DNA of 1,713 nt from Naegleria gruberi (lineage: Eukaryota): assembly GCA_000004985.1 (NCBI GenBank), contig GG739281.1; one strand, written 5' to 3'. Position numbers and translations under genes: made by a program. This document shows, piece by piece, positions 3-1,713 of the stretch. Under the pieces are notes generated by a model. That model saw only the letters and a list, made by a program, of their open reading frames with translations. It searched no databases and was not told where the DNA came from. Position 1 is the first letter of the stretch. Each line of letters opens with the position of its first letter.

Positions 3-290
3 CAACTCACAGCAGATTTGAGAAAACAAGCTCAAATTTTCTTTGAAAAGAGATCGATGGATCAACTTAAACAAAATTCTGGAAGGTGGAAGGATAGATT
101 CAATGATATTACATCATCATTATCAACTGATAATAATAGTGAAAATATTAATACAACCAGAAGTTTTGAAGCTACTGATACTACTACTAATAATAATAAC
201 TCAACAAGAAGCAATGAAAATAGTTTAAAGAGAAAGGAAACACAAGATGTTAATCTATTCGGAGGTATGAAAAAGAAACGAAAACAATAA
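3..290 (+). CDS. 3' terminal part of an upstream protein-coding gene, 5'-partial. The product is Asn/Ser/Thr-rich and low-complexity: ...TDNNSENINTTRSFEATDTTTNNNNSTRSNENSLKRKETQDVNLFGGMKKKRKQ*
   Basis: Frame 0 is open from base 3 to TAA 288-290. The ORF-track start at 18 is a TTG, so it is an artefact of a prokaryotic start table; the true start lies upstream of the window. Codon usage (AAT, AAC, ACT, AGA, CAA) is consistent with the downstream gene. The basic C-terminal KKKRKQ could act as a nuclear localisation signal (NLS). The overlapping ORFs 43-228(+) and 62-349(-) are low-complexity shadows of this frame. Confidence 0.55.
   Translation, partial: QLTADLRKQAQIFFEKRSMDQLKQNSGRWKDRFNDITSSLSTDNNSENINTTRSFEATDTTTNNNNSTRSNENSLKRKETQDVNLFGGMKKKRKQ
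180..200 (+). repeat. In-frame trinucleotide microsatellite (ACT)3(AAT)3AAC encoding TTTNNNN, inside a wider Asn-rich tract
   Basis: The sequence actactactaataataataac was read directly, and the codon phase was checked against frame 0. Confidence 0.7.
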
Positions 291-291
291 A
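286..291 (+). promoter_or_regulatory. AATAAA (contains TAAA) overlapping the TAA stop of the upstream gene; a possible polyadenylation signal if the source is eukaryotic
   Basis: The hexamer caATAAAg spans the stop codon. AATAAA is expected about 2-3 times by chance in 1.7 kb at this AT content (other copies at 637-642 and 732-737), so this is weak evidence. Confidence 0.2.
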
Positions 292-330
292 GTTTATTGT
301 TATCTTCCAACTGCCAGATGTCATCAGGCA

Positions 331-343: not shown

Positions 344-484
344 ATGCAAAAACGAGTAATTTCTGTTGTTGTGGTTTCAATTTTAATAATAGGAGCAATT
401 TTTCTCTATTATTCTAATCTTTCTCGGAATCATAAACAAGCCAATAATAACGTTGTCATTTCAACTACTGTGGCTAACCTTTGA
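344..484 (+). CDS. 46-aa ORF encoding a short basic cytoplasmic tail plus one transmembrane helix (signal-anchor, type-II topology): MQKRVISVVVVSILIIGAIFLYYSNLSRNHKQANNNVVISTTVANL*. It is either a stand-alone small membrane protein or the first (TM-anchor) coding segment of the downstream gene.
   Basis: Runs from ATG 344-346 to TGA 482-484, translated codon by codon. The 19-residue hydrophobic core VISVVVVSILIIGAIFLYY is preceded by the positive residues K and R (positive-inside rule). It lies in the same genomic frame (position mod 3 = 2) as the long downstream ORF. At 46 aa it fell below the ORF-track length cut-off. Confidence 0.4.
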   Translation: MQKRVISVVVVSILIIGAIFLYYSNLSRNHKQANNNVVISTTVANL

Positions 485-847
485 AATGCAAGTTTTTATT
501 TTAAGAAGAGCAAGTAAGTATTTATAGATTGGCAAGTTTCTGCTAATGAAAGGCAACCAGAATCTAATTTTAGTTTTCTTAGAAATTTGAAAATCACACA
601 CCAACCCTGTGAAATATCTGTCAAGTAACACCTCTCAATAAACCTATTAAAAATTCAAAATATTTAAAGAAAACAATCTATCATCACTGAGACCTCGGAA
701 AACAATTATTCGCCCAAGATTTATTCCAACTAATAAATTCTCAATTCCCCATTTCAGAATTACACATATTGCTTTTCTTACAATAATGTCTTTAAATTTG
801 TTGCCAGATGTTATTATTTTATGATGATACTTAATGGTAATAAGTGA
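485..847. other. Non-coding spacer, either an intergenic region or intron sequence. Stop codons occur in all three + frames and all three - frames.
   Basis: Stops enumerated by hand. On the + strand they occur in frame 0 at 525, 588, 627, 639, 648, 822 and 825; in frame 1 at 502, 544, 547, 565, 571, 580, 610, 688, 784, 793, 832, 838 and 841; and in frame 2 at 515, 665, 731, 734 and 845. Complements of stops on the - strand occur in every frame. GC is about 29%, containing GC-richer islands such as cacacaccaaccctgtg and gacctcgg and cgcccaag. Confidence 0.6.
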
Positions 848-961
848 TGGTGTACAATCAAATCTATTTTAAGAATTGCCAATTCATCATACTTGCCATT
901 CTATAATTATATTCTTGCTCTTCTTAAAATAAAAACTTGCATTTCATACCTCATCGACAGT

Positions 962-1713
962 AAGGTCAGAGAACAAACATCTTCACAACAAGAACCAAAA
1001 GTCATTGAAAAGATTATTGAAAAGACAATAGAAATACCAGTAGAAAAGATAGTTGAAAAGATAATAGAAAAACCGTGTGCAACAAGTCAATCCAACGATA
1101 ATAACTTGTCCAAATTTTCAGAATTTTTAAAAAATGATCAATTAAAAGCAATTGAATTGACTAAACAAATTGCTAGTGGAAATGTTAAAAATCCAGCAGT
1201 TCATTTAGTAACTCAATTATTTGGAAATATGGAAAATGATCATTATGTGGATATGTTGGCAGCAATTCAATTAAATCTTTTCAATCCATTTGTTGAAAAA
1301 GTTCACCTCCTTCAAGAGAATGATGCAAACGATCAAGATTTAAAGAAATTAATTGGACAAGAAAAACTTGTCATTCACATGCTAGGTCATCGTATTACAG
1401 TTGGTGATTTTATGAGATATTGTAATGAAAAATTACCACAAAAAATTGTAGGACTCATTAATACTGATGTTTATTTTGATAATACCCTGGTTGAGTTACA
1501 TAGAATGCCACATCAAACTGCATATGTTATTTCAAGAAAGGAAACTCTAGTTGGTAATAAGCCAGATCCAATTAATAATAGAGATCAATGTGGTGGTTAT
1601 CAAGGTTCACATGATGCTTTCATTTTCAGGAATAAGGATAAATTTGGAGATTCAATCATTGACAAGTTGAATAATATTAATTTGGGATATATGGGTACTG
1701 AAAATGTTATTTT
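962..1713 (+). CDS. Internal or 3'-open part of a protein-coding gene; both ends are incomplete or uncertain. Translation: KVREQTSSQQEPKVIEKIIEKTIEIPVEKIVEKIIEKPCATSQSNDNNLSKFSEFLKNDQLKAIELTKQIASGNVKNPAVHLVTQLFGNMENDHYVDMLAAIQLNLFNPFVEKVHLLQENDANDQDLKKLIGQEKLVIHMLGHRITVGDFMRYCNEKLPQKIVGLINTDVYFDNTLVELHRMPHQTAYVISRKETLVGNKPDPINNRDQCGGYQGSHDAFIFRNKDKFGDSIIDKLNNINLGYMGTENVI... The architecture is a low-complexity EK/SN-rich stem followed by a globular domain, possibly a DXD-type glycosyltransferase fold.
   Basis: Frame 2 (codon starts with position mod 3 = 2) contains no stop from 848 to the window end, 288 codons, checked line by line. At about 7.6% stop frequency per random codon, the 89 stop-free codons between 962 and the first in-frame ATG at 1229 have probability of roughly 1e-3. 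Coding therefore extends upstream of any ATG. The 5' boundary is uncertain: the frame is open from 848, but 848-961 translates to the atypical WCTIKSILRIANSSYLPFYNYILALLKIKTCISYLIDS, so it may be non-coding. The ORF track missed this ORF because the window contains no stop for it. Confidence 0.75.
1001..1072 (+). repeat. Six tandem copies of a 12-nt unit (gtcattgaaaag / attattgaaaag / acaatagaaata / ccagtagaaaag / atagttgaaaag / ataatagaaaaa). They encode a tetrapeptide repeat (V/I/T/P)(I/V)E(K/I): VIEK IIEK TIEI PVEK IVEK IIEK.
   Basis: Direct reading of the sequence; the repeat is in phase with the coding frame. Confidence 0.8.

What the first reader, a model, noticed from the sequence alone, without database searches (positions are those of the whole stretch)
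344..1713. The two ORFs together reproduce type-II Golgi glycosyltransferase topology, but are separated by 477 nt of non-coding sequence in the same genomic frame
ORF 344-484 supplies a short basic cytoplasmic tail (MQKR) plus signal-anchor TM. The downstream ORF supplies a low-complexity stem (SSQQEP, (ΦΦEK)6, SQSNDNN) followed by a globular domain. Both use frame 2. The spacing from the TGA at 482 to the first clearly coding codon at about 962 is close to a multiple of 3 (482-964 is 483 nt), so a single gene interrupted by an in-frame insertion or an unconventional intron is possible. The interruption (485-961) contains GC-richer islands and an internal 10-mer shared with the region upstream of ATG 344.
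Basis: inference. Interest (0 to 1): 0.55.

Follow-up and report, generated by a model that had tools for sequence, protein, structure and literature searches.

The report
Transposon-split membrane glycosyltransferase gene
The two reading frames are the two halves of one gene for a membrane-anchored glycosyltransferase-like protein from an AT-rich, probably protist, genome, and a 495-base miniature inverted-repeat transposon flanked by a duplicated TA has split it; this is a well-known kind of event, and the window alone cannot show whether the host removes the element.

Summary
ORF 344-484 (a basic tail plus a membrane-spanning segment) and the open frame that runs to 1713 are in the same frame.

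The gap between them is not anonymous spacer. It is a 495-nt element (468-962) with these features:
- 72-nt terminal inverted repeats (466-537 and 891-962, 85% complementary, with a 33-nt perfect core)
- a TA at each end
- no coding capacity

Deleting 468-962 joins the two parts into one open frame (…NNNVVIST|KVREQTSS…). The TGA at 482 lies inside the element.

Evidence that this is one gene:
- The downstream frame has no ATG before 1229, which is already inside the catalytic fold.
- The domain has 342 homologues. The best is from Naegleria gruberi (42% identity).
- Many homologues carry an N-terminal membrane anchor followed by a stem.

The "GC-richer islands" are not confirmed. The shared 10-mer and the shared frame are at chance level.

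Most likely this is a Tc1/mariner-type MITE insertion that disrupts the gene. Removal as a ciliate-style eliminated sequence or as a transposon-derived intron cannot be excluded. Conventional splice sites are poor, and no other copy or empty site was found.

The parts
3..290 (+). 3' end of an unrelated upstream gene. It encodes an N/T-rich low-complexity tail ending in KKKRKQ, with a TAA stop at 288-290. It is not part of the split gene.
   Evidence: No homologue or record was found.
344..467 (+). First part of the split gene. It holds the ATG, a basic tail (MQKR), a signal-anchor membrane segment (residues about 5-23) and the start of the stem, up to the TA target site.
466..467 (.). Left copy of the TA target-site duplication.
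   Evidence: The arm alignment starts exactly at TACTGT on both ends.
468..960 (.). Body of the non-autonomous inverted-repeat element (493 nt). It has no long ORF and stops in all frames. Its ends pair in a fold with z = -8.85.
468..537 (.). Left terminal inverted repeat. The 33-nt core that is perfectly repeated lies at 482-514.
482..484 (+). TGA that ends the 46-aa ORF. It lies inside the element, so it is a premature stop introduced by the insertion.
891..960 (.). Right terminal inverted repeat. The perfect core lies at 914-946.
961..962 (.). Right copy of the TA target-site duplication.
963..1081 (+). Second part of the gene: the low-complexity stem (SSQQEP, six EK tetrads, SQSNDNN).
   Evidence: There is a weak sub-threshold IMCp hit.
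1082..1713 (+). GT-A-fold catalytic domain, cut off by the end of the window. It keeps the family's conserved residues (IQLNLFNPF, NTDVYFD, SR, C..Y.GSHDAF).

Best explanation
Positions 344-1713 are one gene for a type-II (N-in, signal-anchored) protein with a low-complexity stem and a GT-A glycosyltransferase-like domain. It comes from an AT-rich eukaryote, or possibly a giant virus, whose nearest sequenced relative for this protein is Naegleria.

A 493-nt non-autonomous DNA transposon with 70-nt inverted ends has inserted at a TA in the stem-coding region and duplicated that TA. This is the signature of the Tc1/mariner/pogo superfamily, that is, a Stowaway-like MITE. That much is shown.

Inferred: as the DNA stands, translation from ATG 344 stops at the element-borne TGA 482 and gives a 46-residue anchor peptide. 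The catalytic domain has no start codon of its own. The insertion therefore most likely inactivates this gene copy. It would have to be recent, because both halves are still open and keep all the conserved family residues.
For: Element anatomy:
- Inverted arms 466-537 and 891-962, 72 nt, 85% complementary.
- The core motif occurs twice where 0.01 is expected, and the inverted-repeat score is 41 against at most 20 in shuffles.
- TA lies at both borders, and deleting 468-962 gives one ORF, …VVISTKVREQ….
- There is no long ORF in the element, no tRNA and no Rfam family.

One gene:
- There is no in-frame ATG between 848 and 1229. Position 1229 lies after the first core strand of the fold.
- The domain has 342 homologues, the best from Naegleria gruberi at 42% identity, E 9e-34.
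- Homologues have an N-terminal anchor followed by a stem.

Against host removal by ordinary splicing:
- Every frame-keeping GT/GC-AG pair needs a weak donor (GTGGCT, GTTGTC, GTCATT, GCCAAT or GCTAAC) and an AAG acceptor, the nearest being TAAG|G at 964.
- The good CAG acceptor at 960 and the GTAAGT at 514 are unusable.
- A relative's intron is a short canonical GTGAGT…TATAG.
Against: - Both halves are intact, and every near-invariant family residue is present. This is what one expects if the gene is still used and the element is removed somehow.
- The two arms differ at 11 of 72 positions. If they were once identical, the insertion would not be very recent. However, the mismatches are clustered (P = 0.007 under uniform placement), which fits an inherently imperfect repeat.
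- No second copy of the element was found in three collections, so mobility is inferred from anatomy only.
- The window itself is not in those collections either.
- No empty site or orthologue was available.
Confidence: 0.6

Rival explanations
1. The element is a germline-limited internal eliminated sequence of a ciliate (a 'MITE-IES'). It is cut out precisely at its TA borders by a domesticated piggyBac-type excisase when the somatic nucleus develops, so the expressed gene is intact.
For: - TA lies at both borders, and precise TA-to-TA deletion restores the ORF.
- Both ends read TACTG, which fits the TAYNR end motif quoted for Paramecium (PMC9942856).
- Non-autonomous elements of 0.2-0.8 kb, some with Tc1/mariner-derived TIRs, sit mostly inside coding exons as mobile IESs in Paramecium and Blepharisma (PMC9942856, PMC8354472).
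- Both gene halves are intact.
- Genes are very closely spaced, with 53 nt between the upstream stop and the ATG.
Against: - All 24 glutamine codons are CAA, and the upstream gene ends in TAA. This excludes Paramecium-, Tetrahymena- and Oxytricha-type genetic codes. Only a standard-code or UGA-reassigned ciliate would fit.
- The best homologue is from Naegleria, and none is named as coming from a ciliate.
- The TAYNR match is implied by the inverted repeat and has about a 1 in 4 chance.
- Germline contigs of ciliates are rare in public assemblies (my own judgement).
Confidence: 0.15
2. The element is a transposon-derived intron, either an introner or a euglenid-like nonconventional intron. The pre-mRNA ends are brought together by the paired inverted repeats and the element is spliced out, with weak or non-canonical borders.
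For: - The RNA fold pairs the two ends (-129.6 kcal/mol, z = -8.85).
- A 495-nt GT…AG interval (470-964) keeps the frame.
- The Euglena nonconventional code N3-CDG…CHG-N5|R fits 465-965 apart from the exon-start purine, and fits 465-974 fully. Both intervals are in frame (the code is from PMC12501133).
- Such introns are thought to derive from MITEs and carry TSD-like repeats.
- The protein family occurs in Discoba (Naegleria, Euglena longa).
- Both gene halves are intact.
Against: - The donors are poor and the acceptor would be AAG, while the better CAG at 960 is out of phase.
- Any TA-CTG…CAG-TA element fits the CDG/CHG spacing automatically, so that match is not independent evidence.
- The 29% GC composition is unlike known euglenids (my own knowledge).
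- A relative of the gene uses a short canonical intron.
- No other copies were found.
Confidence: 0.15
3. The two ORFs are separate genes, a 46-aa membrane peptide and an independent cytosolic enzyme, and the sequence between them is ordinary intergenic DNA.
For: The 46-aa ORF has its own ATG and its own stop. The Naegleria model P0001 shows no N-terminal anchor.
Against: - The downstream frame has no ATG before the catalytic core.
- The stop of the small ORF lies inside an inverted-repeat element.
- Most close full-length homologues carry the anchor.
- The 46-aa product is not on record anywhere.
Confidence: 0.03
4. The interruption is a self-splicing group I or group II intron, or an assembly artefact.
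For: Only the strong predicted secondary structure speaks for it.
Against: - No Rfam family matches at E <= 1.
- The structure is a simple long terminal stem.
- The arms are imperfect, there is a TA duplication, and the restored ORF is supported by homology. All three argue for a real insertion rather than a fold-back chimera.
Confidence: 0.02

Closest known systems
Stowaway-like MITEs (non-autonomous Tc1/mariner/pogo derivatives)
   Same: The size is a few hundred bases, there are long terminal inverted repeats, the target duplication is TA, and there is no coding capacity.
   Different: No family members and no autonomous partner were found. The ends read CTGT, not the common CAGT or CTCCCTCC (my own knowledge). 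The outermost 16 nt of the arms are less alike than a 33-nt internal core.
Mobile IESs of Paramecium and 'MITIES' (BogoMITE) of Blepharisma
   Same: These are also TA-bounded non-autonomous inverted-repeat elements that sit inside coding exons, and their precise removal restores the gene (PMC8354472, PMC9942856).
   Different: The host here shows no ciliate signature. There are no TAA or TAG sense codons, and the nearest protein relative is from Naegleria. BogoMITE has TAA/TTA duplications and C-rich ends. Elimination is not shown.
Introner elements and euglenid nonconventional introns
   Same: These are transposon-like inserts with inverted ends and short flanking repeats inside genes, and their ends pair in the RNA.
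   Different: There are no good GT-AG sites. There is no evidence of splicing or of many copies. The composition is unlike euglenids.
Type-II Golgi GT-A glycosyltransferases (for example GlcAT-P, the chondroitin synthase GT-A domains, EXTL2)
   Same: The layout is a short basic tail, a signal anchor, a stem and a GT-A fold with a conserved acidic motif (NTDVYFD) after a central strand.
   Different: Identity to any solved enzyme is only about 10%. No Pfam, NCBIfam or PDB sequence match was found. It belongs to an unnamed eukaryotic family, and its donor, acceptor and location are unknown.

Membership tests
MITE of the Tc1/mariner/pogo superfamily | Terminal inverted repeats | tested here: met
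   The arms are 72 nt long and 85% complementary, far above shuffles.
MITE of the Tc1/mariner/pogo superfamily | TA target-site duplication directly flanking the repeats | tested here: met
   TA lies at 466-467 and 961-962, and similarity between the arms starts exactly there.
MITE of the Tc1/mariner/pogo superfamily | Small size and no transposase gene | tested here: met
   The body is 493 nt (495 nt with one TA) and has stops in all six frames; the longest stop-free stretch is 73 codons.
MITE of the Tc1/mariner/pogo superfamily | Many dispersed copies, and an autonomous element with the same ends | tested here: inconclusive
   The core motif has no exact match in the viral, prokaryote-genome or JGI metagenome collections. 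The source genome itself is not in them either.
Ciliate TA-bounded IES | TA at both borders, with precise deletion restoring the ORF | tested here: met
Ciliate TA-bounded IES | The host is a ciliate | tested here: inconclusive
   There are 0 TAA or TAG codons among 24 Gln codons, and the upstream gene stops at TAA. The best homologue is from Naegleria. Standard-code ciliates are not excluded.
Ciliate TA-bounded IES | Absent from somatic DNA | not testable with these tools
   There are no reads and no second assembly.
Spliceosomal intron / introner | GT(GC)-AG borders with usable consensus that keep the frame | tested here: not met
   Only weak donors (GTGGCT, GTTGTC, GTCATT, GCCAAT, GCTAAC) paired with an AAG acceptor (nearest TAAG|G at 964) keep the frame. 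GTAAGT at 514 lies behind the stop at 482.
Euglenid nonconventional intron | N3-CDG…CHG-N5-6 followed by an exon purine, with the ends base-paired | tested here: inconclusive
   The interval 465-965 fits except that the exon starts with T. The interval 465-974 fits fully. The ends pair. The fit follows automatically from the TA-CTG…CAG-TA ends.
Group I / group II intron | Match to the family's RNA structure model | tested here: not met
   There is no Rfam hit at E <= 1.
Type-II GT-A glycosyltransferase | N-terminal signal anchor with positive charge on the N-terminal side | tested here: met
   MQKR is followed by 19 hydrophobic residues (KD 2.69). This was tested on the conceptual fusion only.
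Type-II GT-A glycosyltransferase | GT-A (nucleotide-diphospho-sugar transferase) fold | tested here: met
Type-II GT-A glycosyltransferase | Conserved acidic (DxD-like) motif after a central strand | tested here: met
   N167, D169, F172 and D173 are near-invariant in the family and present here as NTDVYFD, directly after model strand E122-126. A role in metal binding is inferred.
Type-II GT-A glycosyltransferase | Golgi location and sugar-transfer activity | not testable with these tools
   This needs experiment.

The most novel reading that the evidence does not exclude
The host is not a ciliate or euglenid but an unsampled AT-rich protist, for example a heterolobosean relative of Naegleria. 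It routinely tolerates TA-flanked MITEs inside coding exons because it removes them precisely, either as DNA or as structure-guided non-canonical introns. That would be a new lineage with transposon-derived intervening sequences.
Probability: 0.12. Interest if true: 0.75.

Novelty: new member of a known kind. Interest (0 to 1): 0.33.

Why it matters
As a plain transposon hit in a gene it is ordinary. Its main use is as a clean example that explains why a glycosyltransferase gene appears as a tiny membrane ORF plus a start-less enzyme ORF.

It would matter if the element turned out to be removed by the host. TA-bounded MITEs in intact exons are the proposed starting material for ciliate eliminated sequences, for introners and for euglenid nonconventional introns. 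A new host lineage would extend that picture.

As a by-product, the downstream domain belongs to an unnamed GT-A family. The family is widespread in eukaryotes (Naegleria, Euglena, a soft coral, many metagenome contigs) and has no Pfam model.

Tried and rejected
- The word-index protein search with the fused protein found nothing. With the family alignment it returned only 3 distant proteins, and with the upstream ORF it found nothing.
- Exact look-ups of the 46-aa ORF, the upstream ORF and the Naegleria protein found no record.
- Scans for the TIR core in the viral, GTDB-genome and JGI-metagenome collections gave 0 matches. No element family, source contig or empty site could therefore be recovered.
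- Related-locus scans found none in viral contigs (the first alignment was too divergent). JGI metagenomes gave only 4 distant loci at 25-27% identity.
- The element has no similarity to the two relatives' contigs L001 and L002, and those contigs hold no comparable inverted-repeat element.
- Pfam, NCBIfam and PDB sequence searches gave no family name. The IMCp/alveolin hit to the EK repeats is below Pfam's cut-off and was treated as low-complexity similarity.
- Rfam and tRNA scans were empty. That rejects a group I or II intron and a tRNA-derived SINE.
- A giant-virus origin was considered because of the uniform 29% GC, the 53-nt spacer and the palindrome at the upstream stop. Only distant fold-level relatives exist in giant viruses, and there are no sequence relatives in IMG/VR. 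This was left open.
- The afdb50 fold library was not available.

Full report
**What is in the sequence**

The window is uniformly AT-rich, about 29% GC, with no compositional break anywhere.

ORF 344-484 encodes 46 residues: MQKR followed by a 19-residue hydrophobic stretch. The Kyte-Doolittle 19-residue maximum is 2.69.

The same frame is open again from 848 to the end of the window. Between the two open parts lie seven in-frame stops.

From 962 onward the frame encodes a low-complexity stem: SSQQEP, six four-residue EK units (visible as DNA repeats D1/D2), then SQSNDNN. A globular domain follows.

**The key new observation**

The gap is a discrete element.
- The repeat finder reports inverted arms at 466-537 and 891-962, 72 nt long and 85% complementary.
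- When the arms are aligned, similarity begins exactly at TACTGT on both sides. There is no similarity in the flanks.
- A 33-nt core is perfectly repeated (482-514 and 914-946). A 19-nt piece of it occurs twice where 0.01 is expected.
- The best inverted-repeat score of the window is 41, against at most 20 in shuffles.
- The arms are flanked by TA (466-467 and 961-962).
- Removing 468-962 (495 nt, which is 493 nt plus one TA) gives a continuous ORF, …KQANNNVVIST|KVREQTSSQQEPKVIEK….
- The TGA at 482 and the last five codons of the 46-aa ORF lie inside the element.
- The element has no long ORF in any frame or code, no tRNA-like part and no Rfam match.
- As single-stranded RNA its ends pair into one long stem (-129.6 kcal/mol, z = -8.85).

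This anatomy is small, non-coding, with long inverted ends and a TA duplication. It is that of a Stowaway-like MITE of the Tc1/mariner/pogo superfamily (my own knowledge of the superfamily's TA duplication).

**One gene, and what it encodes**

The downstream frame has no ATG between 848 and 1229. Position 1229 (GNM) lies after the first core beta-strand of the predicted fold. The downstream frame therefore cannot be a gene on its own.

An exhaustive HMMER search found 342 homologues of residues 1082-1711. The best is a Naegleria gruberi predicted protein (42% identity, E 9e-34). Other named homologues come from Euglena longa and the soft coral Xenia. Most of the rest come from metagenome contigs, and the one examined closely (L001) is eukaryote-like. 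There is no Pfam, NCBIfam or PDB sequence match.

Many full-length homologues start with a short charged tail and a hydrophobic anchor, followed by a coiled-coil or low-complexity stem and then the domain. Examples are P0006, P0008, P0009, P0011-14 and P0018. In all, 23 of 41 assessable sequences score at least 1.6. In the conceptual fusion, the conserved LQxNLLNPF-type motif (IQLNLFNPF) lies at about residue 143. In anchored homologues it lies at residues 96-185, so the fusion falls within their range.

Golgi location and activity remain untested.

**How the interruption is dealt with**

Three readings remain.

(a) Plain insertional disruption.
- Translation would end at the element's TGA.
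- This needs the insertion to be recent, since both halves are intact.
- It is the default for a MITE in an exon.
- I favour it at about 0.6, because nothing in the window positively shows removal.

(b) Ciliate-type eliminated sequence.
- The TA borders, the TACTG ends (the TAYNR motif quoted in PMC9942856) and exonic position match the mobile IESs of Paramecium and the 'MITIES' of Blepharisma.
- However, all 24 glutamine codons are CAA and the upstream gene stops at TAA. This excludes the Paramecium-, Tetrahymena- and Oxytricha-type code.
- The protein's nearest relative is heterolobosean, not ciliate.

(c) Transposon-derived intron.
- Conventional splicing is poorly supported. Every GT/GC-AG pair that keeps the frame uses a weak donor and an AAG acceptor, the nearest at 964.
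- The good CAG at 960 is out of phase, and the GTAAGT at 514 lies behind the stop.
- A relative's gene uses a short canonical GTGAGT…TATAG intron.
- The Euglena nonconventional code (PMC12501133) formally fits 465-965 and 465-974. Any TA-CTG…CAG-TA element would fit, and 29% GC is unlike euglenids.

I give (b) and (c) about 0.15 each.

**What could not be done**

The window, its proteins and the element's core are absent from every searchable collection. No second copy, empty site, orthologue or organism name could therefore be obtained. Related-locus scans returned only distant relatives.

- The element is not GC-richer than its surroundings.
- The shared 10-mer (312 and 802) is one of several chance 10-mers.
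- The two parts share a frame only because 495 is divisible by three.

**Verdict**

This is a real and neatly explained feature: one type-II GT-A gene split by a TA-flanked MITE. It is a new member of a known kind. Interest is modest unless host removal is shown.

Noticed in passing
window 280-304: A palindrome with 12-nt arms (GAAAACAATAAA g TTTATTGTTATC) straddles the TAA stop of the upstream ORF. Only 53 nt separate that stop from the next ATG. It may be a 3'-end hairpin signal of the kind described for mimivirus transcripts (my own knowledge), or it may be chance; I estimate P about 0.15.
   Followed up: partly
window 3-290: This is the C-terminal fragment of an upstream gene. It has an N/T-rich low-complexity region and a basic KKKRKQ tail. 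No homologue or record was found in any search.
   Followed up: yes
window 1001-1075: The EK tetrad repeats of the stem give a sub-threshold hit to Pfam IMCp, the alveolin repeats of alveolates (E 6e-4, 20.5 bits against a cut-off of 21.1). This is probably low-complexity similarity only.
   Followed up: partly
window 1082-1713 and proteins P0001-P0150: The catalytic domain belongs to an unnamed GT-A family with 342 homologues and no Pfam or NCBIfam model. Named members come from Naegleria, Euglena longa and a soft coral. One member (P0019, 1289 aa) fuses it to TPR repeats and a GT41 (OGT-like) domain.
   Followed up: partly
window 466-537 / 891-962: The 11 mismatches between the two arms are clustered at positions 7-16 and 50-64, leaving a 33-nt perfect core (P = 0.007 under uniform placement). 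The outermost part of the repeat is less conserved than the inside, which is unusual for transposon ends.
   Followed up: partly
window 514-519: A consensus-like splice donor, GTAAGT, lies inside the left arm. It is phase-compatible with the CAG at 958-960. It would be usable only if the in-frame TGA at 482 were a sense codon, as in UGA-reassigned ciliates.
   Followed up: partly
L001 1748-1797: A distant homologue on an ENA metagenome contig (33% GC) is interrupted by a canonical 47-nt GTGAGT…TATAG intron. The protein called there (P0006) is therefore truncated at the intron.
   Followed up: partly
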